Positions 4,922 to 59,702 of a DNA stretch of 64,000 nt are shown piece by piece. Position numbers and translations under genes: made by a program. The notes below the pieces were generated by a model. It made no database searches and had not been told where the DNA came from. It saw only the letters and a program-made list of their open reading frames with translations. Origin of the DNA: an uncultured Planctomycetales bacterium (GTDB taxonomy: Bacteria > Omnitrophota > Gorgyraeia > Zapsychrales > JANLHA01); the NCBI GenBank assembly GCA_964489065.1, contig CAZAXH010000008.1, positions 130 through 64,129 on the forward strand, given 5' to 3'. Every line of letters begins with the position of its first letter. Within the stretch, counting starts at the first letter, position 1.

Positions 4922-5830
4922 GCCGTTTGTGATAACCTCGCGCAGGTGATCTGCGGTAAGGAAGACAAAATTGAGCTGGTGGTGCTGGCCCTGGTCGCTG
5001 GCGGGCATGTCCTGATTGAAGACATCCCCGGCGTGGGCAAAACCACCCTGGCCCGGGCGCTGGCCAAAACCGTGGATGGCAAGTTTAACCGCATCCAGTT
5101 CACACCCGACCTTTTGCCGACGGATATCACTGGCATCAATATCTTCAACCAGCATGACAGCAGTTTTTCCTTCAGCCCGGGGCCGCTGTTCGCGCATATC
5201 CTGCTGGGCGACGAAATCAACCGCGCCTCGCCGCGCACGCAGTCCGCGTTGCTGGAGGCGATGAGCGAGGAGCAGGTGACGGTTGACGGCGTCAGCCATA
5301 AACTGCCGTCGCCGTTCATCGTCCTGGCCACGCAAAACCCGATCGATTATCACGGCACTTACCCACTTCCCGAAGCCCAGCTCGACCGCTTTATGCTGCA
5401 GATCGACCTCGGCTACCCGCCCCAGGATAAAGAGCAGGCGCTTTTACTGAACCGCACGCGCCAGGACCCGGTGGACCAGATCGGTCCGATCCTGTCTCTG
5501 GAATCCCTCGAACAGTTAAGGGCTGTGGTGGACATGATCCGGCTGGAGCTTTCGGTCAGTGAGTATCTTTTGAAGATCGTGCTGGCGTCCCGGGCGCATC
5601 CCCAGTTAAGGCTCGGGGTTTCCACCCGGGGCACGCTGCTTTACGGCCGCATCGCCCGGGCCCGCGCGGTCATGCAGGGGCGCGACTACGTGATTCCCGA
5701 AGACGTGAAAGATCTGGCGATCCCGGTTTTGGCGCACCGCATTCTGCTGGACACCAAAGCGCAGTACGGCGGCGTCGCCCGGGCGAATATCGTTTCCGAA
5801 ATTCTATCATCCATTAAAGTGCCACGATAA
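4883..5830 (+). CDS. moxR: MoxR-family AAA+ ATPase
   Basis: Walker A GVGKTTLARALAK; Walker B ILLGDEINRASPRTQSALLEAM; conserved MoxR C-terminal region; ATG at 4883 preferred over the tracked TTG at 4877. Confidence 0.9.
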   Translation: MTLSASEASQRMKAVCDNLAQVICGKEDKIELVVLALVAGGHVLIEDIPGVGKTTLARALAKTVDGKFNRIQFTPDLLPTDITGINIFNQHDSSFSFSPGPLFAHILLGDEINRASPRTQSALLEAMSEEQVTVDGVSHKLPSPFIVLATQNPIDYHGTYPLPEAQLDRFMLQIDLGYPPQDKEQALLLNRTRQDPVDQIGPILSLESLEQLRAVVDMIRLELSVSEYLLKIVLASRAHPQLRLGVSTRGTLLYGRIARARAVMQGRDYVIPEDVKDLAIPVLAHRILLDTKAQYGGVARANIVSEILSSIKVPR

Positions 5831-47239: not shown

Positions 47240-47956
47240 ATGCTTTTTTCTGATTTTTTTAAAAAATGTTTTTTCCGTCCGCCTCAACCGGCCCAACCTG
47301 AACGAGAGGCCGATGCCACGGAGCCGGAAGAGTCGAAGTCCGGGGCAGCCGCTACGCCGGTAACTCCGGCGCAGCCGTTGCCGGAAAAGGGCGTGGCCAC
47401 CCCGGTTGTGCCGGCAGAACCTTCCTCTGTTGCGCCGGCGGCTTCGGAGAGCGAGCCGGTCCAGGGACCGCTCCCGGAGCCTTCACCGCTCGGGCCGGCC
47501 CCTGCGGTAAAAGCATCAGTCAAAAAGGTCTATTTCCTGGGGGGCAGCCAGGAGAAGCTTAATCAGAGGCTTCAGGATGAGTTGAAGAAGATGGGGTTCT
47601 CGTGGATCGATTTGTCTGCGGTTTATATGGAACGGGCTTTGGATGAAATTATGCGGAGCAACCCGGATGTCTTTTTTTCCGTGGTCGTCTTGTCCGGAGA
47701 TGAATTTGTTTACGATAAAAACAGCAAGCCATCGCAGGCCCGGGTTTGTTCCAAGCAAGATATTGTCTTTAAGCTGGGGTATTTGATCGGCCACCACGGG
47801 AAGAGCCACTGTTTTGTGCTTTATAAAGAACAAAAAAGTTTTGCACTGCCAACCAGTTTGATCCACGGTATTTTTACCGTGCTGGATGACGATGTCCGTT
47901 GGAAAGACATGTTGAGATCCCGTCTGGTCGGAGCCGGGTATTCTGTTCCGTGTTGA
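47240..47956 (+). CDS. TIR-like nucleotide-binding domain protein (COG4271/PF10137-like) with Pro/Ala/Glu-rich N-terminal linker
   Basis: KKVYFLGGSQE ... FSVVVLSGDEF ... QDIVFKLGYLIGHHGKSHCFVLY parallels the KVFIGSSSE ... FAIVLLTPDD ... RDNVIFELGLFIG pattern of the TIR-like family; starts 4 bp after mtaB stop. Confidence 0.55.
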   Translation: MLFSDFFKKCFFRPPQPAQPEREADATEPEESKSGAAATPVTPAQPLPEKGVATPVVPAEPSSVAPAASESEPVQGPLPEPSPLGPAPAVKASVKKVYFLGGSQEKLNQRLQDELKKMGFSWIDLSAVYMERALDEIMRSNPDVFFSVVVLSGDEFVYDKNSKPSQARVCSKQDIVFKLGYLIGHHGKSHCFVLYKEQKSFALPTSLIHGIFTVLDDDVRWKDMLRSRLVGAGYSVPC

Positions 47957-48600: not shown

Positions 48601-49122
48601 ATGAAAAAAATACTTTTTACTATAACAATTTGCACGTTGTTAACCCAAACCGTGCCCGGGTATGCGGTCATGGTCCATTATTACGATGAGAACGGGAAGA
48701 TTCACTATGTGAATACTGCCGTGGCCCAGGTTCCTCCTCGGTACATGGATCAAGTCCGGCCTCAATTAGAGGCGGCTGAACGGGCACAAGCCGAAAAGGC
48801 GGAAGAACAAGCGACCTCCGAGATAGACGTCCCGGAAGAGTCGGGAGAGGGTGAAAGCCAGACGCCGAATCCTCCCCAAATTGTCCTTGATGTCCTGACG
48901 AGTTCACACTGCCGGGGATGCATGAGGCTTTTTGCTCAACTGCGCGTGAACAAAATTTTTTTCCGGTCCCACAATATCGAAACGAGTGCCCGGGGGAAAG
49001 AGTTGTACCAGCAGTATCAAGGAATGCCGCTTCCGATTACCATTATCGGCGATGAAGCCGTTTCCGGTCCCGACATCCTCAAGATCAAAGAACTTCTTGA
49101 GAAAATAGGAAAGGAAGAATAA
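48601..49122 (+). CDS. Secreted DUF4124-like protein with C-terminal glutaredoxin-like CxxC domain
   Basis: Signal peptide; VHYYDENGKIHYVNT (DUF4124-like); C-terminal SSHCRGCMRLFAQ ... ITIIGDEAVSG resembling Grx fold. Confidence 0.5.
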   Translation: MKKILFTITICTLLTQTVPGYAVMVHYYDENGKIHYVNTAVAQVPPRYMDQVRPQLEAAERAQAEKAEEQATSEIDVPEESGEGESQTPNPPQIVLDVLTSSHCRGCMRLFAQLRVNKIFFRSHNIETSARGKELYQQYQGMPLPITIIGDEAVSGPDILKIKELLEKIGKEE

Positions 49123-49166: not shown

Positions 49167-49559
49167 GTGATGAGTCATAAGAAAACTGGATTTACTCTAG
49201 TTGAAGTGATGATTGTTATCGCTATTATCGCTCTTTTAGCCGTGATCGCTATCCCGAACCTTTTTCGGGCCCGGATCCAGGCCAATGCTTCGACAGCCCA
49301 GGCCCATTTGAAATCTATCGCCAATTCCCTGGAAAATTACGCGGCTATTCACAGTGTTTATCCCGCCAATACATCCCAACTCCTGGGAGCCAGCCCTCCT
49401 TATTTGAGTATCGACTTTTTTTCGGGAACCCATGCCGGATATTCCTTTACCAGTGTTCTGTCTGATTATGCTTACACGATTACCGCTTCGCCGGAGAATA
49501 CGACGTCCGGGACAAGCACGTTCACTTTGACGACAGGCGGCATCATTTCTGCTTTATAA
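49167..49559 (+). CDS. Prepilin-type N-terminal cleavage/methylation domain protein (type IV pilin / pseudopilin-like), Ser/Thr-rich C-terminus
   Basis: Leader MMSHKKTG|FTLVEVMIVIAIIALLAVIAIPNL (G-FTLVE class III signal). Confidence 0.85.
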   Translation: MMSHKKTGFTLVEVMIVIAIIALLAVIAIPNLFRARIQANASTAQAHLKSIANSLENYAAIHSVYPANTSQLLGASPPYLSIDFFSGTHAGYSFTSVLSDYAYTITASPENTTSGTSTFTLTTGGIISAL

Positions 49560-49663: not shown

Positions 49664-50959
49664 ATGGCGCATTTCCTGTTTGTAAAACCCTGTTGGCCGT
49701 ATCCTTACAACAAAGGGGACCATACGTATAACCGTATATGGCCGCCGTTGTCTTTGCTGAATGGTGCGGCGATTTTAGAACGACAAGGTCATGTTGCCCA
49801 TGTTTTGGACGCCCATGCTTTGAGGCTGAATTTGGAGGATATTCCTTCCCGTCTGCAAGGCTACGATACAATTTTTATTACGTCCTCCTGCCTGGATCGC
49901 TGGCAATGCCCTCCTGCTGATATTACGCCGTTTTTGGAAACGGTCAAAAGGGCCAAGCAAGTCACGACCGAAATTTATGTGATGGGCTATCATGGGACGG
50001 TGGAGCCGGAGGGGGTGTTGAGACGCACGCAGGTCAAGGCTGTTTTAAGAGGCGAGCCCGAGCGGATGATTGAAGCTCTGGGAGCCGGGAAGCCTCATTC
50101 GGATATCCCAGGCTTGACATATTTTTCTGCAGGGGAAATAATTTCTTCCGGCGACGGGGAGGTTGTGGACTTGAGTTCCTTGCCCTTGCCGGCGTATCAT
50201 CGAATCGACCGCCGGTTGTATTCTTATGAAATCTTAGGGGATGATTTTGCGCTTTTTGAATTCAGCCGGGGGTGCCCCTATGATTGTAAATTTTGTAATA
50301 AAATCATGTATGGTTCTTCGTGGAGAACCAAAAGCCTCCCGCAGATCATGTCGGAAATTCAGACCGCGGTCGAGCAATATCATTACCGGACAGGATACTT
50401 TTTCGACCTCGAATTTCTCTCCGACCGGGGGCTGGCCGAAAAAATTTGCGATTTTTTAATATCCCAACATTATCCTTTCCAGTGGTGCTGTCAGACACGG
50501 GCTGATTCTCTGGACGCATTTATTCTGGATAAAATGAAACAGGCGGGATGCCGTTTGATCCACATGGGGTTGGAGAGCGCCCAGCAGAAATACTTGGATC
50601 TCTCCGGGAAAAACATGCGGTTGGCCCATGTCCGAGATGCGGTGAGCCGGTGCCGCTCGGCTGGTATTCAATCGCTGGTTTTTCTTCTTTTTGGGTTTGC
50701 CGGAGAAACCCCATCGGAACGGGAGGCCGCGCTGCGCTTCGTTCAGGAATGCGATCCAGATTATGTTTCATTTCATAAACTTTATCCTTACCGGGCAGGA
50801 GCTTTTTATCTCCCGGACTTAAACGAAAATCAGGAGATCGACCGGTTTATCCGAAAAGCTGTTTTGCGGTATTATCTGCGGCCGAAAATTTTACTTCGCA
50901 TGAACCGGGTAACACTGCTGCGTAGCGCCCGGCTTCTTCTGGGGCGCCTGCAATCATGA
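49664..50959 (+). CDS. B12-binding domain radical SAM protein (class B), paralog 2
   Basis: N-terminal B12-binding fold; FEFSRGCPYDCKFCNK radical SAM motif; extended -10 TGTGCTATAAT at 49629-49639; stop overlaps next gene. Confidence 0.75.
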   Translation: MAHFLFVKPCWPYPYNKGDHTYNRIWPPLSLLNGAAILERQGHVAHVLDAHALRLNLEDIPSRLQGYDTIFITSSCLDRWQCPPADITPFLETVKRAKQVTTEIYVMGYHGTVEPEGVLRRTQVKAVLRGEPERMIEALGAGKPHSDIPGLTYFSAGEIISSGDGEVVDLSSLPLPAYHRIDRRLYSYEILGDDFALFEFSRGCPYDCKFCNKIMYGSSWRTKSLPQIMSEIQTAVEQYHYRTGYFFDLEFLSDRGLAEKICDFLISQHYPFQWCCQTRADSLDAFILDKMKQAGCRLIHMGLESAQQKYLDLSGKNMRLAHVRDAVSRCRSAGIQSLVFLLFGFAGETPSEREAALRFVQECDPDYVSFHKLYPYRAGAFYLPDLNENQEIDRFIRKAVLRYYLRPKILLRMNRVTLLRSARLLLGRLQS

Positions 50960-52596
50960 CCTGTCCGTCCAATTCCCAACAACGAGCCCGTATTAAATTT
51001 TTAACCGCCATTGTTGTGTTGCTCTGGATGGCCTTCCTGATTTTTTTTCGTCTTGGCCATTATGCGTTATGGGACGACGAAGCGATCTGCGCTTTGTTCG
51101 GAAAAACTCTTTTTGAAACCGGCGACACATCCGCCGTCCTGGGCCGTAATATCATCGCCTTTAATGACGGGCGGGAACTGGAAAATCTGCGGCAGAGGTA
51201 TGTCCCGCCGTTGCAATTTTATCTTGTGGCCCCGTTGGCCGGGACCACTCGTCATTCGGCCTTTGCGGTTCGCTTCCCGTTTGCGCTCTGCGGGCTTTTT
51301 GCCGTGGCCGTGATCCTGTATTGGCTTTGGGGAACCCGAGCTCCGCTCAAGACCTGGCTCTTGATGTCGGCCGGACTGGCGGGCAATGTATCCCTGATTC
51401 TGTTTTTTCGGCAATGCCGGTATTATGCGCCGATGATGTTGTCTTCTCTTCTCTTAGCCTATGGGTATCTTAGTAACACCGCGAGCAGAAAAAGAATTTG
51501 GCTTATGGCGGGGGCGGCTATTTTGCTTTTGGCCTCAAATTATCTGGCTTATACCGCGGTTATGGCCTGCGGTCTTGTCCATTACCTGATATGGGGGAGA
51601 AAGGACCGCCCTCTTTCAGCATCGGAAGTGGGGTTTTTTGCCTTCACGCAATGTCTGGCCGGCGGGCTCATATTAAGCATTTATAACCCTTTTGGAAAGG
51701 ATGTCTGGGATTATTCCAGTCGTTTCTGGCTCCAGGAAAGGCTTTTGCTTCTTGGGTGGAATTTCCGTGATTTAAACTCCTGTGAAATGGGCATCGGTTT
51801 GTTCATAGGCATGGCCCCGTTATTGTATTTTTTTAAAAAAGACCGCCGACTTATTGAGGCCCCGGTTATGATTTATACTTATATCCTGACAATCTCGATT
51901 TTTTCTCCCCAGCCGGTTAATCAAATGTCAGTGGCTTTTGTCCGTTACCTCTGCCCGTTGATCCCGTTATGCATTTTTACGTCTGTCATCGTGATTCAGG
52001 CCCTGACGGTTAAAGTGCCGTACCTGGCCTTTCCTCTGGCCTTATTGTGTTTTATGACGAATAGTGTGCACGGCGGTTTGTTCTTTCAGCATCCCGATGG
52101 GACGGCTTTCTCTCATGTTATTCAGAGCCGCCCCTGGCGTTCGACGGTTGTGGACTTTTTGCGCGAACTGGCAGCGCCTCGTGAAGGGCCTTATCGTATG
52201 GCGGCTGATTGGATCAAAAGGAATGTGAAGGAGGGGGCAAGCGTCCTAGCCGTCCCCGGCTACACCGTTTACCCGCTGATTTTTCATGCCCCTCACGCGG
52301 TCTATGCCTGGCAGCTCTCGGGAAACGAAACGGGCCGGCAGTTTCAGCATTTGCCGGATATCCATTTCCGGGGCCGGGTCCGGCCTGATTATATTATTGT
52401 TTTTGGGCCGTCGATCGAGGTTGCCGGTTTGCTTGACCAACAAACCGGCGCAGCAAGATATATTGCTGTTGAGCGCCTGGATGTTTACTGGGCTGACCTT
52501 ATCCGGCCGGAACTTTTCTGGCATTCTTTTTCCCCTGTCAGGAATTATAACCCGGATACGGAATCGATTGTTATTTACAAGAAGGCATCCCGTTGA
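50956..52596 (+). CDS. ArnT/PMT-like GT-C fold membrane glycosyltransferase, paralog 2
   Basis: Polytopic; N-terminal periplasmic-loop acidic motif LWDDEAICALFGKTLFETGD and YVPPLQFYLVA resembling PMT_2/ArnT signatures; translationally coupled to the rSAM gene (ATGA). Confidence 0.65.
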   Translation: MTCPSNSQQRARIKFLTAIVVLLWMAFLIFFRLGHYALWDDEAICALFGKTLFETGDTSAVLGRNIIAFNDGRELENLRQRYVPPLQFYLVAPLAGTTRHSAFAVRFPFALCGLFAVAVILYWLWGTRAPLKTWLLMSAGLAGNVSLILFFRQCRYYAPMMLSSLLLAYGYLSNTASRKRIWLMAGAAILLLASNYLAYTAVMACGLVHYLIWGRKDRPLSASEVGFFAFTQCLAGGLILSIYNPFGKDVWDYSSRFWLQERLLLLGWNFRDLNSCEMGIGLFIGMAPLLYFFKKDRRLIEAPVMIYTYILTISIFSPQPVNQMSVAFVRYLCPLIPLCIFTSVIVIQALTVKVPYLAFPLALLCFMTNSVHGGLFFQHPDGTAFSHVIQSRPWRSTVVDFLRELAAPREGPYRMAADWIKRNVKEGASVLAVPGYTVYPLIFHAPHAVYAWQLSGNETGRQFQHLPDIHFRGRVRPDYIIVFGPSIEVAGLLDQQTGAARYIAVERLDVYWADLIRPELFWHSFSPVRNYNPDTESIVIYKKASR

Positions 52597-52895: not shown

Positions 52896-53600
52896 ATGCA
52901 ACAACCTTTTTTTTCAATATCTGTCATCCTGCCCGTTTATAATGAGGGGGAAAACATCGCGGACACGGTTGCCCACGTCGCCAGCTTTTTAAACGGGCAG
53001 CCGGTTTTCGATAAGCATGAAATCATCGTGATTGATGACGGGAGTGCGGATGACACTCCGGCCATATTAAATACCCTTTGTCAGCGGTATCCAAATTTAA
53101 AAACTTTTCGGCATAACAAAAATCTTGGATACGGGGCTGCCCTTGTGTCGGGGATCAAACAGGCTGTTTCAGAATGGGTCCTTCTGATGGATGCGGACGG
53201 GCAATTTAAACTTGACGCCCTGCTGGACATGATTCCGTATCTTGATCATTATGATATCCTGGCAGGATTCCGGGCGAAAAGGACAGATTCGCTCTATAGA
53301 ATCGTTTTGGGGCGGACTTACAGCCGCCTGGTAGCCCTGTTGTTCAAGCTTGATCTTCTTGATATTAATTGCGGGTTTAAACTTTTTAGAAGAAACAGTA
53401 TCAATGTGGAAACGCTTAATGCGCACGGCGGCGTTTTTTACACGGATTTCTTTATCAAAGCCCGTAACCAGGGCTGCCGGGTCAAACAGATTCCGGTTGC
53501 GCACTTCCCCCGGGAGAAAGGGAAACAAACCGGGGCGAGTATCAAGGTTATTTTTGCCGCTGTGGTTGATATTGTCCGTCTCCTGTCTGGCCGGGAATGA
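52896..53600 (+). CDS. GT2 family glycosyltransferase (polyprenyl-phosphate sugar synthase, Dpm1/ArnC-like)
   Basis: ISVILPVYNEGENI ... VIDDGSADDT ... LMDADGQ (DXD); size and motifs of polyisoprenyl-phosphate glycosyltransferases. Confidence 0.8.
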   Translation: MQQPFFSISVILPVYNEGENIADTVAHVASFLNGQPVFDKHEIIVIDDGSADDTPAILNTLCQRYPNLKTFRHNKNLGYGAALVSGIKQAVSEWVLLMDADGQFKLDALLDMIPYLDHYDILAGFRAKRTDSLYRIVLGRTYSRLVALLFKLDLLDINCGFKLFRRNSINVETLNAHGGVFYTDFFIKARNQGCRVKQIPVAHFPREKGKQTGASIKVIFAAVVDIVRLLSGRE

Positions 53601-53672: not shown

Positions 53673-54914
53673 ATGACGGTAGGATTGATGCGCAGACTGG
53701 ACTTCTGGATCGGGGTTCCCTTTTGCTTTCTTTTGTCTATTTTTCAGCTTCTGCAAAAACCTTTCCAGAAGGGCCCGGTACCGGGCAAGCCTCTCAAGAA
53801 GGTGCTTTTCCTGGAGTTATCTGAAATAGGAAGCACGATCCTGTCTTATCCGGCCATGCAAAAACTGAAAGAGCTGTATCCTGAAAACGAATTGTATTTT
53901 TGGATCTTTGCTGATAATCAGGATGCGGTTCATGTGCTTGGCACGGTTGCCAGAGAAAATGTCTTGACCATACGGACCGGCAGTTTTTTGGCCTTTTGTA
54001 ATGATATTGTCCGCAATCTTCAGAGGATCCGGCGGGAACAGATTGACGCCATCGTGGATATGGAGCTTTTTTCAAGGTCCAGCAGTATTTTGGCTTTTCT
54101 GACCCGGGCCCGCATCCGTATCGGATTTGGGACCTTCGCGCAAGAGGGACTTTATCGGGGAAGTTTACGCACGCATGAGGTTTCTTATAACCCTTATCAG
54201 CATATTGCCCAGAATTATGTCGCCTTGATTTATGCTTTGAAATCCTCCCCCGGGCAATTTCCCTGCGTGAAAGAAAACTGGCAATCATCGCCGGCGCCGT
54301 TAACGTTACCGGTGCTTGAGTCTCCCGAAGGACGAAAGGCGGCGATGATGGATATTCTGCGTCGGGAAAATCCTCACATCGACCATTGCCGGCAAAAAGT
54401 CGTGATTCACCCCGGGATTCATGAGGCGTTACCTCTGCGTCAGTGGCCGATTGAGAACTACTTGAAGTTGGCGGAAAAATTATCTTCCCGGCCGGACGTA
54501 ATGATTATATTCGCCGGGGTGACTGGCAAGGCGAAGGACGCCGGGGGATACCATGAAAAGCTGCGCGGCCTCCGGACAATTAATTTGATCGGGAAAACCC
54601 GTATCCCGGATTTGATCGATTTGTTCAATCTGTCTAATTTGTTGATAAGCCATGATGGGGGCATCATTCATATTGCTTCCCTGACACGGATTCCTGTTAT
54701 CGCTATTTTCGGGCCGGAAACGCCTGTTTTATATGGCCCGCTTAAAGAGAATAAAATTATTTTTTATAAACCTTTTTCATGCAGCCCGTGCCTGACAGCT
54801 TATAATCATCGCATATCTCATTGTAAAGAAAATCGTTGTGTGCGTTCAATTCCTGTGGAGGATGTGTATCAAGGCGCAGTAAAAATTTTGAATCAAGAGT
54901 TGGCTATGCTTTAA
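53673..54914 (+). CDS. GT9 family glycosyltransferase (heptosyltransferase-like)
   Basis: KKVLFLELSEIGSTILSYPAMQ N-terminus and C-terminal GxDGG-like ISHDGGIIHIASL ... IFGPETP pattern of ADP-heptose:LPS heptosyltransferases. Confidence 0.7.
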   Translation: MTVGLMRRLDFWIGVPFCFLLSIFQLLQKPFQKGPVPGKPLKKVLFLELSEIGSTILSYPAMQKLKELYPENELYFWIFADNQDAVHVLGTVARENVLTIRTGSFLAFCNDIVRNLQRIRREQIDAIVDMELFSRSSSILAFLTRARIRIGFGTFAQEGLYRGSLRTHEVSYNPYQHIAQNYVALIYALKSSPGQFPCVKENWQSSPAPLTLPVLESPEGRKAAMMDILRRENPHIDHCRQKVVIHPGIHEALPLRQWPIENYLKLAEKLSSRPDVMIIFAGVTGKAKDAGGYHEKLRGLRTINLIGKTRIPDLIDLFNLSNLLISHDGGIIHIASLTRIPVIAIFGPETPVLYGPLKENKIIFYKPFSCSPCLTAYNHRISHCKENRCVRSIPVEDVYQGAVKILNQELAML

Positions 54915-55230
54915 ATATTTGAAAAATATGTGGTTATTTTTTCTTTGGGGAAGCTGTCCCTGCGGGGGGATTTATAAAATGAACTTGCTGTCTGTGCTCC
55001 TACAAATTATACTTATATTGTAATAAAAGATTAAGTTTTCTTACTGCCGTCTGGTATATTTTAAAGAATGAAAATAGGTGGGGTTATTTCTAAAAAATCC
55101 TTTGATTTTTCGTTTTTTACATGCTTAAATGATACTGGGTTTAATTATATTTTTTATCAGTAATATCCTCTAGATTTCATGAGTTTTTCAGGAAATTAAC
55201 GCAGAACAAGGGGAAGGGGGGGGGCGCCGG

Positions 55231-55503
55231 ATGTCACGGAAAAAACGTTTGTGGTTTGGCGGGATTCTGGTTTTCGTGCAGTTACTGATAATATTGAGCC
55301 TGTCCCTCGTTGGCCCCAAAACACCCATAACTCCCGTTAAAGAAGCAGATGCTCAATGTATGACTTTTTGGCTGAGTGCCGCCAATAACGCTGTGCCCAC
55401 ATGTCCCAGTGGTACTCTTTTGGGGTATGCATATACTGGCATAGTGGCGGTGTATGGAGGAACGGCAACTCGATACGTCGGATTATGCGCAAGGGATTTG
55501 TAA
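55231..55503 (+). CDS. Small secreted Cys-containing peptide, paralog A (90 aa precursor)
   Basis: Sec-type signal peptide; shared core TPVKEADAQC.xFWL.AANN.VP.C..G......Y..G.V.VYGG.A.RYV.LC with the adjacent paralog. Confidence 0.55.
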   Translation: MSRKKRLWFGGILVFVQLLIILSLSLVGPKTPITPVKEADAQCMTFWLSAANNAVPTCPSGTLLGYAYTGIVAVYGGTATRYVGLCARDL

Positions 55504-55535
55504 TTTATCGCCAATGTTCAAAAGGAGGCTGTTTG

Positions 55536-55802
55536 ATGTTAAGGGAAAAAATTCTTTGGTGTGCGGCAGCCCTAGTTATTCTTCAGTTATTTTTGGTTTT
55601 AGGCACGACCCTCACCGAAACGCAAACATCCGTAACTCCGGTGAAGGAAGCTGACGCGCAATGTATCCGATTCTGGCTTGATGCCGCCAACAACACTGTT
55701 CCGGGCTGCTCCGGCGGCGTCGTTGTCAGTTATGTCCAAAGCGGTACGGTTCCGGTCTATGGGGGCTCCGCGGCTCGATACGTCGCGTTGTGTTCCATCT
55801 AA
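55536..55802 (+). CDS. Small secreted Cys-containing peptide, paralog B (88 aa precursor)
   Basis: RBS AAGGAGG before the ATG at 55536; about 50% identity to paralog A including all three Cys positions. Confidence 0.55.
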   Translation: MLREKILWCAAALVILQLFLVLGTTLTETQTSVTPVKEADAQCIRFWLDAANNTVPGCSGGVVVSYVQSGTVPVYGGSAARYVALCSI

Positions 55803-55892: not shown

Positions 55893-57584
55893 ATGCTGAA
55901 TTTGCAGACAGCTTCTTCATTATTTCCTCAAACACAATTTAACAGGTTGAAAACTTCCCTTACAGTTTCTCTTCTGGCCAAGGTGATCCTGATTTTATTC
56001 CTTCTTGTGGCTGCTGGAATTTTCAGGTTTTACAATCTTGGCCTGTACGACCTGACCTTCGATGAACTCGGGACAGAAATGTACACTTTTCAGGCCGTGG
56101 ATAAAGTGGCACGTTTATCCGGGCAGAGCCATTTTACTGTTTTGTCCGAACAGATGAAAAATGATCCGCATTCTCCACTTTATTATTTTATTATTTATTA
56201 TTTCAGCAAATATGGGGGGGATGATGGGGCGCGTCTGCGCCTGTTATCGGTGATTTTGAGCCTGAGTACATGCTTGCTTTTTTTCTGTTTTTCGACACTG
56301 TTCCTTAACTTCCGCGGGAGCGTTCTGGGCATGGGCTTGCTGGCGATTCATCCCTTGCACATCTGGTATGCCCAGGAAGCCAGGATGTACGCGTCGGTCG
56401 GCTTTTTTGTCCTTTTGATGGCGACGATGTTTGTATTGGCGGTGCGTACAGATAAGATTCGGCTTTGGATCCTGTTCCTCGTGACAGGGGCGCTTGCTTT
56501 GGTGGCCAGTTATTTTACCGTTTTCTTATTAATAGCCATGGGGTTAGTCGTGTTGCTGCCCAATAACCGCCGTTATTTATGGAAATGGACTTTTTCGGTG
56601 ATAGGGATGGTTGTTATCCTCTTGTTGTTGCGGCCGATTTTTTTCAGCCAGTTTAACTTTGTAAAACACAGTTTCTGGATACCACAGCCTTCCTTTGTAA
56701 CCCTCTTCCTCACCCAAATGATTTTTCATCAGGGATTTTCGGCGACATGTTCCCAGTATTTTTCCGGCCTGATCCTGTTCTCCAGTCTTTTCGTCCTTGG
56801 GGTGTTATCTTTATTTTCTTTAAACCGCAAGAAAACGTTTATTCTGTTCATTTTTATCGCCGTCCCGTTCTCCTTGGCGTATTTTATTTCCAAGTATTAT
56901 GTCCCGATTTATATTCATCGGCAGCTAATGGTTTTTTCGCCTTTTTACTATCTTGGCATAGCCCAGGGAATAGAAAGGATTTTACCCCGCCGTTATGGGC
57001 CCCTAGTTTTTCTTCTAGCTGCGGCCCTGCTGTTAAGCAGCCTCCGGAATTATTATGCCGGGTATATGTTTTCCCATCCTTTTCGGGCGGATCTGCTCGG
57101 TGGCGTATATCCCAAAAAACGCTACCAGGAACTGTTCCGCTCTTTGAACCAGGCGGCCCTTAAGAACGATTCGCTGATTGCTGGCGACCTGCAGTCTTAT
57201 ATCTTATTGCGGGCCTATCTTGAAAGACAGGAGGGACGAGGGAATCTGTCCCCGGACAGGTTATGGTTCGTGTTCGCCCCGCAATATGTTTTTCAGTATG
57301 ATCAGCGTTATATGGGTATTGATGCCCCTGTGAAACAACTGTCACCCTCCCAATTTAAAAATTTTTACGCCTATCAGTTGCCCCCGGACCGGGCGATCAC
57401 GATGCATCCTGCTCAGTTAAAGCCCATGACATTGGGACGATTATGGGTGGTGACCTCCAGTTGGGATATGGACAGATCCTTGGGAATGGATGCTGAAGAG
57501 CTTTTAATCCAATTAAGGCAGCTTTCTCATCGGCAGTCTTCTAGCTGTAAAGACGGTATTTGTGTTGACCTCTTTGCCCCCTGA
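55893..57584 (+). CDS. ArnT/PMT-like GT-C fold membrane glycosyltransferase, paralog 3
   Basis: 563-aa polytopic protein; N-terminal loop YDLTFDELGTEMY acidic motif; similar topology to the other two. Confidence 0.55.
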   Translation: MLNLQTASSLFPQTQFNRLKTSLTVSLLAKVILILFLLVAAGIFRFYNLGLYDLTFDELGTEMYTFQAVDKVARLSGQSHFTVLSEQMKNDPHSPLYYFIIYYFSKYGGDDGARLRLLSVILSLSTCLLFFCFSTLFLNFRGSVLGMGLLAIHPLHIWYAQEARMYASVGFFVLLMATMFVLAVRTDKIRLWILFLVTGALALVASYFTVFLLIAMGLVVLLPNNRRYLWKWTFSVIGMVVILLLLRPIFFSQFNFVKHSFWIPQPSFVTLFLTQMIFHQGFSATCSQYFSGLILFSSLFVLGVLSLFSLNRKKTFILFIFIAVPFSLAYFISKYYVPIYIHRQLMVFSPFYYLGIAQGIERILPRRYGPLVFLLAAALLLSSLRNYYAGYMFSHPFRADLLGGVYPKKRYQELFRSLNQAALKNDSLIAGDLQSYILLRAYLERQEGRGNLSPDRLWFVFAPQYVFQYDQRYMGIDAPVKQLSPSQFKNFYAYQLPPDRAITMHPAQLKPMTLGRLWVVTSSWDMDRSLGMDAEELLIQLRQLSHRQSSSCKDGICVDLFAP

Positions 57585-57731: not shown

Positions 57732-59702
57732 ATGAAATTAAAAAAGTTTAAAATAACCCATTATAAATCTATCGTAGACAGCGGCTATTGCTGTCTTTCC
57801 TCTGACCTGACGATTTTGCTGGGGAAAAATGAATCGGGGAAAACGGCTATTTTGGAGGCCCTGCGCGATTTTGACCGGCAAAGCATGTCAATCTCCGGGG
57901 ATGCCTTCCCGGTCAGTGGTAATGGGGACGAGCCTAAACTTGAAATGGTTTTTTCGATGAGGGGAGAGGAGTTGAAGTCCATTCAGGAAACAACAGGCAT
58001 AAAATTGGAAGGAAAAATATCCGATCATGTGCTTGAAAACGGCGTCGTGCTAGAAAAGGATTGCCGGGGTTCGTATGATTTAAAAGACGAAAAACTGGCG
58101 GGACTTCTTGAGGCAGCTAATCAGGGCCAACGCTATTTTATCCGCTGTGAAGAAAAAAAACTTGTTGAGCTTCTAAAAGGGTATTCTGTGCCTGATTTAA
58201 ACCTGGAGGCCCCGGTCCCGGTGATCCAAGACAGAGTGCAACAACTTTTTGTCACCATTAAATCCTTGCTGCCGCTGCTGAAGGACGAGAAGCTGCAGCA
58301 GGCGGTCATTGAGTCGCTGCGTTTTATTAAACAGGAGTCCAAAAATCTTCCGGAAAAAGAACAGGAAAGGGATGTGATGTCCCTCTTTTTAAACACAGTC
58401 GTTGAACGGCTGCCGCATTTTATCCTTTTTAATGAGTTTAACGGCATGCTGCCTTTTGAGATTGCGCTGGCTGACATAAAATCTAATCAGGCCGTCATGG
58501 ATTTCGCTAAGATTGCCCGGCTTGATATTGACAAGGTCATTGCCACCGAGGACACCCAGAAACGTTTAAATATCCTGAATCGTCATTCCGCCTGCATTAG
58601 CGGGGATTTTCTTAATTATTGGGGACAGAATAAAATGGAACTGGTCATCTGGCCGGAGGGGGATAAGCTGCTTTTTGGAGTTAAAGAATCCGGCAAGACT
58701 GAAATTTTTAAAGTGGAACAACGCAGTAAAGGTTTCCAGTGGTTTCTGTCCTTTTATCTTCGTCTGAACAGCCAGCGGGGGAGCAACAATATCATCCTCA
58801 TTGATGAGCCGGGAATGAACCTTCATGCCAAAGCCCAGTTAGAAATCATTAAAGTGCTTGAAAGCATGAGCGCCGAGGATAACCAGATTATTTTCAGCAC
58901 GCATTCGCCGTATCTGATCGATGCCCTGCGTCTTGACCGGCTTCGGTTAGTTGTAAAAGATGCGCAGAAGGGGAGCGTTATTGAAAGCAATCTGAGTGTC
59001 AATGCGGATAATGAAACCTTGATGCCGTTGGTGTCGGTTTTAAATATGAATTTAAACCAGAATTTGTTCGGGATTGATGACGGGCGCACGCATGTTATCG
59101 TAGACGGCCTGGCGAATTATTATTTCCTTGAAGGTTTGCGGATATGCATCAAAGATATTCCTTGGGGCCAATATCATTTTATCCCGTCTGCGGACCGGAC
59201 CAATGTCCGCCAGATCGCCTCTTATATGGTCGGGTGCGATATGCCGTTTAAAGTCGTCTTAGAGCATGACGCCGACGGCCAGGCCCTGGCCGTTCTCCTA
59301 AAAGACACTTTTGGGCTGGAGAACTCCCGTGTTATTTTTATCGGCCCGGTTTTGGGGGAGCGGTTTGAGGACCTTTTTTCCCGGGAGGACTTTTTTAAAT
59401 ATTTCTTGGAAGAGCCTTTTGAGGATATGCCTCCCGGTTCTAATTCGAATTTTTCTGAAAATAAGAATCGTGTTTGGCTTGCCAAAAAATTTTCAGAACG
59501 CGCTACAAATCAACAGGATATTTTGACGCTATCTGACAAAACCCACACATCATTCCATAATTTTTCAAGGCAACTGCTCGGCGAACTCCCAGGGGAAGCC
59601 CCGGGCACTAAAAAGAAATCTTTGTTGTCTGAGATAAGGCGTTTCCCGTTCTTCCCCTTTCCTAAAAGAAGTCATGAGATGACGGAAACAATCAGGCCAT
59701 AA
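57732..59702 (+). CDS. OLD-family ATP-dependent endonuclease-like protein (ABC/AAA_15-21 ATPase N-domain plus C-terminal TOPRIM-like domain); candidate antiphage defence protein (class 1 OLD or fused PARIS AriA-AriB-like)
   Basis: P-loop LLGKNESGKTAILEAL; Walker B/D-loop IILIDEPGMNLH; H-loop FSTHSPY; C-terminal HVIVDGLANYYFLEG and VLEHDADGQ (DxD) consistent with TOPRIM; lower GC than flanks. Confidence 0.6.
   Translation: MKLKKFKITHYKSIVDSGYCCLSSDLTILLGKNESGKTAILEALRDFDRQSMSISGDAFPVSGNGDEPKLEMVFSMRGEELKSIQETTGIKLEGKISDHVLENGVVLEKDCRGSYDLKDEKLAGLLEAANQGQRYFIRCEEKKLVELLKGYSVPDLNLEAPVPVIQDRVQQLFVTIKSLLPLLKDEKLQQAVIESLRFIKQESKNLPEKEQERDVMSLFLNTVVERLPHFILFNEFNGMLPFEIALADIKSNQAVMDFAKIARLDIDKVIATEDTQKRLNILNRHSACISGDFLNYWGQNKMELVIWPEGDKLLFGVKESGKTEIFKVEQRSKGFQWFLSFYLRLNSQRGSNNIILIDEPGMNLHAKAQLEIIKVLESMSAEDNQIIFSTHSPYLIDALRLDRLRLVVKDAQKGSVIESNLSVNADNETLMPLVSVLNMNLNQNLFGIDDGRTHVIVDGLANYYFLEGLRICIKDIPWGQYHFIPSADRTNVRQIASYMVGCDMPFKVVLEHDADGQALAVLLKDTFGLENSRVIFIGPVLGERFEDLFSREDFFKYFLEEPFEDMPPGSNSNFSENKNRVWLAKKFSERATNQQDILTLSDKTHTSFHNFSRQLLGELPGEAPGTKKKSLLSEIRRFPFFPFPKRSHEMTETIRP

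What the first reader, a model, noticed from the sequence alone, without database searches (positions are those of the whole stretch)
55231..55802. Tandem paralogous small secreted peptides with conserved tri-Cys core behind an AT-rich 316-bp regulatory gap
The two adjacent genes encode precursors with Sec signal peptides. Their mature regions share TPVKEADAQC-x-FWL-AANN-VP-C...VYGG-A-RYV-LC. An odd number of Cys (3) suggests intermolecular disulfides or a modified Cys. They are embedded among glycosyltransferases. Possibilities are bacteriocin-like peptides, cell-surface subunits or glycosylation substrates. They look like novel small proteins.
Basis: seen in the sequence. Interest (0 to 1): 0.55.

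Follow-up and report, generated by a model that had tools for sequence, protein, structure and literature searches.

The report
Small exported cysteine proteins beside glycosyltransferase
Two adjacent genes in an uncultured Omnitrophota bacterium encode real, previously undescribed ~90-residue exported proteins that always sit directly in front of one membrane glycosyltransferase gene, so they are most likely the proteins that enzyme decorates with sugar, though this is untested.

Summary
Gene A (55231-55503, 90 aa) and gene B (55536-55802, 88 aa) are tandem paralogs (53% identity, E 1e-34) under purifying selection (dN/dS 0.06-0.5). Each has a basic N-terminus, a ~20-residue hydrophobic segment, a Pro/Thr linker, an A-x-A|Q-C site and a ~48-residue domain with three conserved Cys.

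The family matches no Pfam or NCBIfam model. It has about 12 clusters among 5.8 billion proteins, all Candidatus Omnitrophota where a source names the organism. AlphaFold2 predicts a three-stranded all-beta domain (pLDDT 89.8) with no Foldseek match in PDB or BFVD.

In 9 of 9 distinct loci, one to three copies lie directly upstream of an ortholog of the PMT_2 GT-C glycosyltransferase (55893-57584). They follow a conserved promoter-like block in the 316-bp, 33.5% GC gap.

Best reading (confidence 0.4): Sec-exported proteins that are the dedicated acceptors of this GT-C.

The profile's only PDB sequence hit is sublancin-168, an S-glycosylated bacteriocin. The hit is sub-threshold (E 0.078, then 2.8), and the predicted fold, leader and enzymes all differ. 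The family is therefore not a glycocin.

The odd Cys count is not a family rule: mature domains carry 3-6 Cys.

The parts
54915..55230 (+). 316-bp AT-rich intergenic region upstream of gene A
   Evidence: 33.5% GC against 51.2% for the window. A comparably long gap (256-455 bp) lies upstream of the first small gene in the orthologous loci. No Rfam match. The presumed 5' UTR folds no better than shuffles.
54985..55013 (+). Promoter-like block P1: TTGCTG (54985-54990), 17-nt spacer, TATACT (55008-55013)
   Evidence: TATACT with a TTGnnn hexamer 17-18 nt upstream recurs in the window, L001, L004, L005, L008, L011 and L012. Read by eye; it falls below the consensus scan's threshold. Function is inferred.
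55086..55132 (+). Near-invariant 45-nt block: TTGATT (55102-55107), 17-nt spacer, TGcTTAAAT (55122-55130). It includes a perfect inverted repeat AAAAATC-CTTT-GATTTTT (55093-55110).
   Evidence: It occurs once in the window, with 0 matches in 100 shuffles. An exact core pattern is present upstream of the first small gene in L001, L002, L003, L005, L007 and L008, and by eye in L004, L011 and L012. The overlapping 31-aa ORF is broken by stop codons in L005 and L008 (read), so the block is conserved as DNA, not as protein. A role as promoter plus operator is inferred.
55231..55503 (+). Small protein A precursor, 90 aa. Residues 1-41 (55231-55353) are the n-region MSRKKR, a hydrophobic segment and a Pro/Thr linker ending in ADA. 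Residues 42-90 (55354-55500) are the QC...C...LC domain.
55536..55802 (+). Small protein B precursor, 88 aa. Residues 1-41 occupy 55536-55658 and the mature domain occupies 55659-55799. The RBS AAAAGGAGG lies at 55520-55528.
55893..57584 (+). GT-C glycosyltransferase, 563 aa, Pfam PMT_2. This is the invariant downstream partner of the small genes.
   Evidence: PF13231 at E 6.7e-8, 33.3 bits against a 26.1 cutoff. At least 7 hydrophobic segments. D53 and E58 are invariant in YDxxF[DE]E after TM1. An ortholog follows the small genes in every locus.
52896..53600 (+). GT2 glycosyltransferase, 234 aa; candidate polyprenyl-phosphate-sugar synthase that would supply the GT-C donor
   Evidence: PF00535 at E 7e-32. 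The best NCBIfam matches are PgfS, ArnC and PpgS types, all far below their cutoffs. Syntenic in the Omnitrophota loci. The donor role is inferred.
53673..54914 (+). GT9 heptosyltransferase-like protein, 413 aa
   Evidence: PF01075 at E 1.3e-24. Syntenic in the Omnitrophota loci. Its link to the small proteins is unproven.
49664..52596 (+). B12-binding radical SAM protein (49664-50959) overlapping the start of a 546-aa multi-pass membrane protein of unknown family (50956-52596), which carries WDDE after its first TM
   Evidence: Syntenic with the small genes in the Omnitrophota loci. In L009 the gene directly upstream is an opposite-strand Wzz-like gene, so this pair is not adjacent there. Whether the pair belongs to the same system is open.

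Best explanation
A and B are small exported envelope proteins that serve as the dedicated acceptor substrates of the GT-C glycosyltransferase encoded directly downstream.

Proposed course, with every step beyond the gene anatomy inferred:
1. A conserved promoter in the AT-rich gap drives a unit made of the small gene(s) plus the GT-C.
2. The precursors insert through Sec by their basic, hydrophobic N-terminus.
3. Signal peptidase I probably cuts after the conserved [AV]-x-[AS]. This leaves an N-terminal Gln or Glu, either of which can cyclise to pyroglutamate, followed by Cys.
4. The ~48-residue domain folds in the periplasm into a three-stranded beta-sheet. Two of the three core Cys form a disulfide.
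5. The GT-C uses a polyprenyl-phosphate sugar made by the nearby GT2. It transfers sugar to the domain, either in the variable Ser/Thr/Asn/Gly-rich loop before the P-x-C-x-G-G motif or on the unpaired Cys.

The biological role of the product (surface coat, adhesin or secreted peptide) is not known.
For: - Adjacency: one to three family genes lie immediately upstream of an ortholog of the 563-aa GT-C in all 9 distinct loci. These include L009 and L010, which share only 30-37% identity with A and B. In L009 the directly adjacent upstream gene is an opposite-strand Wzz-like gene, not the GT9.
- Parallel divergence: against L008 the small protein is 38-39% identical and the GT-C 42%. The rSAM, 546-aa protein, GT2, GT9 and AAA neighbours keep 54-59%.
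- Export features: a K/R-rich n-region, one hydrophobic segment, -3 in {A,V} and -1 in {A,S} before [QE]-C in all 10 non-redundant members, and Cys confined to the exported part.
- PVKEADAQC is held identical in A and B despite 6 synonymous codon differences, which fits a recognised processing or recognition site.
- The GT-C passes the Pfam PMT_2 threshold and keeps acidic residues after TM1. A TM-poor GT2 of the polyprenyl-phosphate-sugar synthase type is two genes upstream.
- Variable copy number (1-3) and a hypervariable S/T/N/G loop suit a substrate or structural product better than an enzyme subunit.
- Precedent: tfpW, a GT-C, lies immediately downstream of pilA, the pilin it glycosylates (bioRxiv 10.1101/2020.04.19.049825).
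Against: - No glycosylation, cleavage or expression data exist.
- Adjacency fits an accessory or regulatory partner equally well.
- The hydrophobic segment (~20 residues) and the 7-19-residue linker are long for a cleaved signal peptide, so the proteins may stay membrane-anchored.
- No conserved Ser, Thr or Asn acceptor position exists in the mature domain. Only Cys, Gly, Tyr and Leu columns are conserved.
- PMT_2 enzymes often act on lipids or glycans (for example ArnT on lipid A) rather than on proteins.
Confidence: 0.4

Rival explanations
1. Glycocin-like exported peptides. After export, the loop Cys in P-x-C-x-G-G is S-glycosylated and the product acts as an antimicrobial or signalling peptide. 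This would be a periplasmic, Sec- and GT-C-dependent counterpart of sublancin.
For: - A family profile searched against all PDB sequences returns sublancin-168 as its only hit (E 0.078). AQC-xx-[FL]WL aligns, and family Cys2 falls on sublancin Cys22. Cys22 as the S-glucosylated residue is from my memory; Kaunietis et al. 2019 (PMC6405829) state only that the Cys of the G-C-G-G/S loop motif is glucosylated.
- The score beats 4999-5000 of 5000 composition-matched shuffles.
- By eye, the C-terminal Y-x-x-[LF]-C-x-end motif is also shared.
- Some members have an odd Cys count, and the genes are surrounded by glycosyltransferases.
- Tandem divergent copies resemble bacteriocin precursor arrays.
Against: - Database-wide significance is absent and worsens with a broader profile (E 2.8, with a fibronectin type II domain ranking higher at 0.24).
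- The predicted fold is all-beta at pLDDT 89.8, whereas glycocins are two-helix hairpins.
- There is no double-glycine leader.
- No SunT-like ABC/C39 protein, DsbB-like (BdbB-type) protein or immunity gene appears among the 23 neighbours scanned. One signal-bearing CxxC protein, 48601-49122, lies about 6 kb upstream, but its link is untested.
- The GT2 scores 16.8 bits against a cutoff of 350 for SunS.
- Some members have 4 or 6 Cys.
- No route across the outer membrane is evident.
Confidence: 0.12
2. Uncleaved bitopic membrane proteins that act as accessory or regulatory subunits of the GT-C. They would present an acceptor, stabilise the enzyme or gate it, rather than being glycosylated themselves.
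For: - Strict adjacency to the GT-C.
- The hydrophobic segment has TM length, with a long flexible linker.
- The predicted single-layer beta-sheet should need a partner surface to be stable.
- The small proteins and the GT-C diverge in parallel.
Against: - The A-x-A|Q/E site is conserved in every member although linker length varies from 7 to 19 residues. An uncleaved tether gives no reason for this.
- Copy number varies from 1 to 3 per single GT-C, which is unusual for a stoichiometric subunit.
- The small genes have their own strong promoter-like block and RBS, suggesting higher expression than the enzyme.
Confidence: 0.2
3. Structural envelope or surface proteins, for example disulfide-linked oligomers or fibres, whose link to the GT-C is only co-regulation within a cell-envelope locus.
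For: - Flat beta-sheet domains rich in Gly, Ala, Thr, Tyr and Val with an unpaired Cys could stack or cross-link.
- The neighbourhood is envelope-related: GT9, GT2, a Wzz-like gene in L009 and a pilin-like gene at 49167-49559.
Against: Adjacency to this particular GT-C survives where all other neighbours change (L009), which argues for a specific functional tie. There is no similarity to known fibre subunits.
Confidence: 0.15
4. Precursors of radical-SAM-modified RiPPs, matured by the B12-binding radical SAM enzyme four genes upstream.
For: The radical SAM protein has weak similarity to RiPP enzymes (ApyD 2e-28, TIGR03975 9e-15). It is syntenic in the Omnitrophota loci.
Against: - Its best matches are to HpnJ and BchE types, and all fall far below cutoffs.
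- It is translationally coupled to the 546-aa membrane protein, not to the peptides.
- In L009 the gene directly upstream of the small genes is an opposite-strand Wzz-like gene, so the enzyme is not adjacent there.
- Sec-type N-termini are unusual for RiPP leaders.
Confidence: 0.05

Closest known systems
Pilin plus dedicated GT-C glycosyltransferase (Pseudomonas aeruginosa group IV pilA-tfpW)
   Same: A small exported protein gene lies immediately upstream of a multi-pass GT-C enzyme with an acidic motif and a C-terminal periplasmic region. The donor is a lipid-linked sugar made by separate genes.
   Different: A and B are not pilins. They lack the class III signal and the G|FTLxE motif (a separate N_methyl pilin-like gene sits at 49167-49559). 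The acceptor domain is a ~48-residue Cys-containing beta-sheet. The GT-C is PMT_2-type and no TPR Pfam domain was detected in it. Glycosylation is unproven here.
Sublancin-type glycocins (SunA/SunS/SunT/BdbAB)
   Same: Small Cys-containing peptides encoded next to glycosyltransferases. They share a local motif, AQC-xx-[LF]WL ... C-G-G ... Y-xx-[LF]-C-x-end. Some members have an odd Cys count.
   Different: The similarity is sub-threshold (E 0.078 to 2.8). The predicted fold is all-beta, not a helical hairpin. The N-terminus is Sec-type, not a double-glycine leader. No SunS, SunT or DsbB-like (BdbB-type) gene was found among the neighbours scanned. The organism is Omnitrophota (a diderm envelope is my assumption, not tested) rather than Bacillota.
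Three-component periplasmic glycosylation systems (GT2 polyprenyl-phosphate-sugar synthase, flippase, GT-C; for example GtrABC, ArnC/ArnEF/ArnT, PpgS/Rv3632/Rv3779)
   Same: A GT2 of the synthase type and a PMT_2 GT-C lie in one locus.
   Different: No GtrA- or ArnE/F-like flippase was recognised. A and B have one hydrophobic segment each and so cannot be such flippases. Known systems modify lipid A, O-antigen, teichoic acids or arabinogalactan, and their acceptor is not encoded beside the GT-C.
Sec-dependent small beta-rich bacteriocins (lactococcin 972 type)
   Same: About 90-residue precursors with a Sec signal and a small all-beta mature domain (my own knowledge of Lcn972).
   Different: No sequence or Foldseek similarity was found. 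Lcn972 has no Cys and no glycosyltransferase partner.

Membership tests
Sec/signal peptidase I substrates | Positively charged n-region followed by a hydrophobic h-region | tested here: met
   MSRKKR and MLREK are followed by a single hydrophobic segment with KD 19-mer scores of 2.56 and 2.39. The segment is about 20 residues, longer than a typical h-region.
Sec/signal peptidase I substrates | Small neutral residues at -3 and -1 (A-x-A rule) | tested here: met
   ADA, AEA, AQA, VQA or VES precede [QE]-C in all 10 non-redundant members.
Sec/signal peptidase I substrates | Short c-region (about 3-7 residues) and demonstrated cleavage | tested here: inconclusive
   The linker from the hydrophobic segment to the A-x-A site is 7-19 residues (13 in A and B). 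Cleavage itself cannot be tested with these tools, and no SignalP was available.
Sublancin-type glycocins | Statistically significant sequence similarity to known glycocin core peptides | tested here: inconclusive
   E 0.078 with profile A2 and E 2.8 with the broader profile A3. The score is better than 4999-5000 of 5000 shuffles in a targeted test. Glycocin F scores below zero.
Sublancin-type glycocins | Two-helix hairpin stapled by two nested disulfides (5 Cys) | tested here: not met
   The AlphaFold2 mature domain is three beta-strands with no helix, pLDDT 89.8. A and B have 3 mature Cys. This rests on prediction only.
Sublancin-type glycocins | Double-glycine leader and a SunT-type C39 peptidase/ABC exporter | tested here: not met
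   The N-terminus is hydrophobic and Sec-type. None of the 23 neighbouring proteins scanned has a Peptidase_C39 or ABC-exporter architecture.
Sublancin-type glycocins | SunS-family S-glycosyltransferase | tested here: not met
   The GT2 scores 16.8 bits against TIGR04195, whose cutoff is 350.
Sublancin-type glycocins | Glycosylated Cys in a G-C-G-G/S loop | tested here: inconclusive
   The family has P-x-C-x-G-G or C-x-x-G in a predicted loop. Modification is not testable here.
Acceptor plus dedicated GT-C pairs (pilA-tfpW type) | Acceptor gene adjacent to the GT-C gene | tested here: met
   9 of 9 distinct loci.
Acceptor plus dedicated GT-C pairs (pilA-tfpW type) | GT-C fold with an acidic motif in the first periplasmic loop | tested here: met
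   Pfam PMT_2 above threshold. D53 and E58 are invariant in four orthologs. No PDB sequence relative was found.
Acceptor plus dedicated GT-C pairs (pilA-tfpW type) | The small protein is actually glycosylated by that enzyme | not testable with these tools
   This needs co-expression and mass spectrometry.
Type IV / Flp pilins | Class III signal (G|F/M-T-L-x-E or G|xxxxEY) | tested here: not met
   No such motif occurs in any member, and there is no N_methyl Pfam hit.
Bacterial lipoproteins | Lipobox [LVI][ASTVI][GAS]C directly after the h-region | tested here: not met
   Cys is preceded by Q or E and lies 8-20 residues after the hydrophobic segment.

The most novel reading that the evidence does not exclude
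The family is a Sec-exported, periplasmically matured counterpart of the glycocins. In this reading a GT-C enzyme, using a lipid-linked sugar, glycosylates a small disulfide-stapled peptide, possibly on the unpaired Cys of the P-x-C-x-G-G loop. That would be the first GT-C-dependent route to a glycosylated small peptide and the first glycocin-like system outside Bacillota. All glycocins in the papers I read are made by cytoplasmic SunS-type GT2 enzymes and exported by C39-ABC transporters.
Probability: 0.12. Interest if true: 0.8.

Novelty: new variant of a known kind. Interest (0 to 1): 0.45.

Why it matters
If the acceptor reading is right, this is a compact natural pair: a ~48-residue acceptor domain and its own GT-C glycosyltransferase, from a phylum known here only from metagenome assemblies. 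Dedicated protein-modifying GT-C enzymes with a known acceptor are rare in bacteria. A minimal acceptor would help structural work on acceptor recognition and could serve as a tag for glycoengineering. If the modified residue turned out to be the unpaired Cys, it would extend S-glycosylation to a new enzyme class and compartment. If the reading is wrong, the finding is still a clean, conserved, unannotated small-protein family with a confident predicted fold that has no structural relative. That has modest value for annotating Omnitrophota genomes.

Tried and rejected
- Curated families: Pfam, NCBIfam and PADLOC scans of A, B and eight other members, up to E 10, gave only noise.
- Homolog searches: two single-sequence searches and one profile search of 5.8 billion proteins, plus a full HMMER profile search of 1.84 billion representatives. 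They found about 12 clusters and one spurious eukaryotic repeat protein, P0010.
- Contig scans: the genome and metagenome scans each added two loci. The viral contig scan found none.
- Structure: the full-length model was mediocre (pLDDT 70.8) and the mature-domain model good (89.8). Foldseek against PDB (twice) and BFVD found nothing with E <= 0.001 (best 0.33-0.49).
- Sublancin homology: rejected as membership and kept only as an analogy.
- Fibronectin type II resemblance (E 0.24): rejected. It is not significant and Foldseek did not recover it.
- Other classes considered and rejected from the sequences: lipoprotein, pilin/Flp, C-terminal sorting-signal substrates, metal or haem sites, and DPM2/3-like tethers for the GT2 (wrong topology).
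- RNA element in the gap: no Rfam match, and the UTR and the B-to-GT-C spacer fold no better than shuffles.
- The 31-aa ORF at 55068-55163 over the conserved block: rejected because stop codons break it in L005 and L008.
- PDB sequence searches for the GT-C (single sequence and 4-sequence profile) and for the 546-aa protein: no hits.
- BLASTP of the 546-aa protein against the GT-C: no similarity.
- Disulfide connectivity could not be settled because model coordinates are not returned.

Full report
**Observation**

The two ORFs are present as described. A is 55231-55503 (90 aa). B is 55536-55802 (88 aa), with its ATG at 55536 behind AAAAGGAGG. They are 53% identical over 87 residues (E 1e-34). 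The gap from the upstream GT9 gene is 316 bp and has 33.5% GC, against 51.2% for the window.

Corrections are minor. The motif is QC-x-x-FWL. B has an extra Cys in its N-terminal hydrophobic segment.

**Are they real genes?**

Yes. Orthologs of both exist in several Candidatus Omnitrophota assemblies. dN/dS against three orthologs is 0.20-0.51 for A and 0.06-0.31 for B. That is comparable to the neighbouring GT2, GT9 and GT-C at 0.09-0.23.

The nonapeptide PVKEADAQC is identical in A and B although 6 of its 9 codons differ at synonymous positions. It is therefore kept by selection on the protein, not by gene conversion.

**Anatomy of the family**

I collected 18 sequences (10 non-redundant types) from the window and from loci L001-L012. 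All share these features:
- a K/R-rich start and a hydrophobic segment of about 20 residues;
- a linker of 7-19 residues ending in [AV]-x-[AS], followed by [QE]-C-x-x-[FYV]-x-L;
- a variable Ser/Thr/Asn/Gly/Ala-rich stretch, then (P)-x-C-x-x-G;
- a C-terminal Y-x-x-[LM]-C followed by 1-4 residues.

Three Cys are invariant. Extra Cys bring the mature totals to 3, 4, 5 or 6, so 'odd number of Cys' is true for A and B but is not a family property.

The -3/-1 pattern fits signal peptidase I. The Gln or Glu at +1 could form pyroglutamate (inference). The long hydrophobic segment and linker leave an uncleaved membrane anchor possible.

**Structure**

The full-length AlphaFold2 model has an N-terminal helix, a disordered linker and a beta domain (pLDDT 70.8). 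The mature domain modelled with 10 sequences is confident: pLDDT 89.8, pTM 0.65. It has three long strands, at construct residues 10-18, 28-40 and 43-55, and no helix.

Foldseek finds nothing with E <= 0.001 in PDB or BFVD; the best E-values are 0.33-0.49. A single three-stranded sheet of this length probably needs a partner surface (inference). Disulfide connectivity could not be read because coordinates are not returned.

**Distribution**

The family is tiny. About 12 clusters at 90% identity exist among 5.8 billion proteins. Six hits appear in a full HMMER scan of 1.84 billion representatives, and one of those (P0010) is a spurious repeat protein. Every member that a source names is Candidatus Omnitrophota. 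None is on viral contigs. No Pfam, NCBIfam or PADLOC model matches.

**Genomic context**

In the window the order is:
- B12-binding radical SAM protein (49664-50959);
- a 546-aa multi-pass membrane protein of no known family (50956-52596, WDDE after TM1);
- GT2 (52896-53600);
- GT9 (53673-54914);
- the 316-bp gap, then A and B;
- a 563-aa PMT_2 GT-C (55893-57584);
- an OLD/AriA-like AAA_15/21 ATPase (57732-59702).

This block is syntenic in L001, L004, L005, L011, L012 and in the more distant L008, which is about 55% identical at the protein level.

The decisive observation concerns the small genes and the GT-C. One copy (L008, L011, L012), two copies (window, L001, L004, L005) or three copies (L009, L010) always lie immediately upstream of an ortholog of the 563-aa GT-C. 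That is 9 of 9 distinct loci. In L009 the gene directly upstream of the array is an opposite-strand Wzz-like gene, not the GT9. The minimal conserved module is therefore small gene(s) plus GT-C.

Against L008, the small protein (38-39%) and the GT-C (42%) have diverged more than the other five proteins (54-59%). Single-copy genomes show that an A/B heterodimer is not obligatory.

**The gap**

The gap carries two blocks conserved across all Omnitrophota loci.
- P1 is TTGCTG, 17 nt, TATACT (54985-55013).
- The second is a nearly invariant 45-nt block (55086-55132). It has TTGATT, 17 nt, TGcTTAAAT, and a perfect inverted repeat AAAAATC-CTTT-GATTTTT (55093-55110) over the -35 hexamer.

The block is conserved as DNA, because the overlapping small ORF is broken in L005 and L008. 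There is no Rfam hit and no unusual RNA folding. I read it as a promoter with an operator (inference).

**The sublancin lead**

A profile of 11 family members searched against all PDB sequences gave a single hit, sublancin-168 (E 0.078). AQC-xx-FWL aligned to AQCAALWL, and the family's middle Cys aligned to sublancin Cys22. From memory, Cys22 is the S-glucosylated residue. The paper I read states only that the Cys of the G-C-G-G/S interhelical-loop motif is glucosylated (PMC6405829). I confirmed my remembered SunA sequence at 100% identity over residues 15-56 against SPbeta-type phage records.

In a targeted test the score beat 4999-5000 of 5000 composition-matched shuffles. By eye, the C-terminal Y-x-x-[LF]-C-x-end motif is also shared.

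Several results count against membership:
- With a broader mature-domain profile the hit falls to E 2.8, and a fibronectin type II domain ranks above it at E 0.24.
- Glycocin F does not score.
- The predicted fold is all-beta rather than a disulfide-stapled helical hairpin.
- The leader is Sec-type rather than double-glycine.
- No SunS-, SunT- or DsbB-like gene is among the 23 neighbours scanned.

I therefore do not file the family as a glycocin. The resemblance is a lead for where a modification might sit.

**Explanation**

I favour, at confidence 0.4, that A and B are exported proteins that are the dedicated acceptors of the downstream GT-C, with the GT2 supplying a lipid-linked sugar. The closest documented architecture is pilA-tfpW, where a GT-C gene sits immediately downstream of the pilin it glycosylates.

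The rivals are:
- accessory or regulatory subunits of the GT-C (0.2);
- structural envelope proteins that are merely co-regulated (0.15);
- glycocin-like secreted peptides with an S-glycosylated Cys (0.12, a special case of the favoured model);
- radical-SAM RiPP precursors (0.05).

Nothing here demonstrates expression, cleavage, secretion or glycosylation.

**Novelty and score**

The family itself is undescribed and has no sequence or structural relative. The kind of arrangement, a small exported protein with its own glycosyltransferase, is known. I rate it a new variant of a known kind, with interest 0.45. It is well conserved and coherent and suggests a clear experiment. It is also narrowly distributed, and its function is unresolved by computation.

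Noticed in passing
window 55086-55132: A 45-nt block upstream of gene A is almost invariant across Omnitrophota genomes whose flanking genes are saturated at synonymous sites. It is more conserved than a plain promoter needs to be. It contains a perfect inverted repeat AAAAATC-CTTT-GATTTTT (55093-55110) over the -35-like TTGATT, which suggests an operator for an unknown regulator.
   Followed up: partly
window 55216-55224: A run of nine G lies between the Shine-Dalgarno-like GGGGAAGGGG and the ATG of gene A. The closest ortholog (L004) has GAGGGGAGGAGGGC instead, so the homopolymer is strain-specific. It could be a slippage-prone tract or an assembly artefact.
   Followed up: partly
window 48601-49122: A 173-aa protein with a signal peptide and a C-terminal CRGC (CxxC) glutaredoxin/thioredoxin-like region, with only a weak CLIC-like_N Pfam hit. 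It may be a periplasmic thiol-disulfide oxidoreductase. It is syntenic with the locus in the closer genomes. Any link to the Cys-containing small proteins is untested.
   Followed up: partly
window 49167-49559: A type IV pilin-like protein (N_methyl motif, weak ComP_DUS hit) with a Ser/Thr-rich C-terminus lies directly upstream of the radical SAM gene and the 546-aa membrane protein. This gives a second 'small exported protein followed by a large multi-pass membrane protein' arrangement in the same region.
   Followed up: no
window 49664-52596: A B12-binding radical SAM gene overlaps by 4 bp the start of a 546-aa multi-pass membrane protein. That protein has no Pfam, NCBIfam or PDB match and carries WDDE after its first TM, which is GT-C-like by eye only. 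The pair is conserved in the Omnitrophota loci where that region is present, including L008.
   Followed up: partly
window 57732-59702: An OLD/AriA/GajA-like AAA_15/AAA_21 ATPase (PADLOC Old 3.6e-22) follows the GT-C in L003, L004, L005, L008, L011 and L012 at 59-94% identity. That is unusually stable synteny for a presumed defence gene.
   Followed up: partly
window 47240-47956: A 238-aa protein with a CAP12/Pycsar-type TIR domain (PADLOC PDC-S35 1.3e-14), conserved in synteny upstream of the locus.
   Followed up: no
window 54760-54850 (GT9 C-terminus): The GT9 heptosyltransferase-like protein ends with a four-Cys cluster (CSPC...C....C), which may be a metal-binding knuckle. It is also conserved in the L008 ortholog.
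   Followed up: no
L008 1-5735 and 17939-20273: The distant Omnitrophota genome carries at least four B12-binding radical SAM genes and an asparagine synthase-like gene around the same locus.
   Followed up: no
L009 2987-3795; L010 434-1255: The distant loci carry three tandem, strongly diverged family copies each, with 3-6 Cys, in AT-rich contigs of unnamed origin. Each array has its own extended -10-like element (TGTTATAAT in L009, TGCTATAT in L010) upstream.
   Followed up: partly
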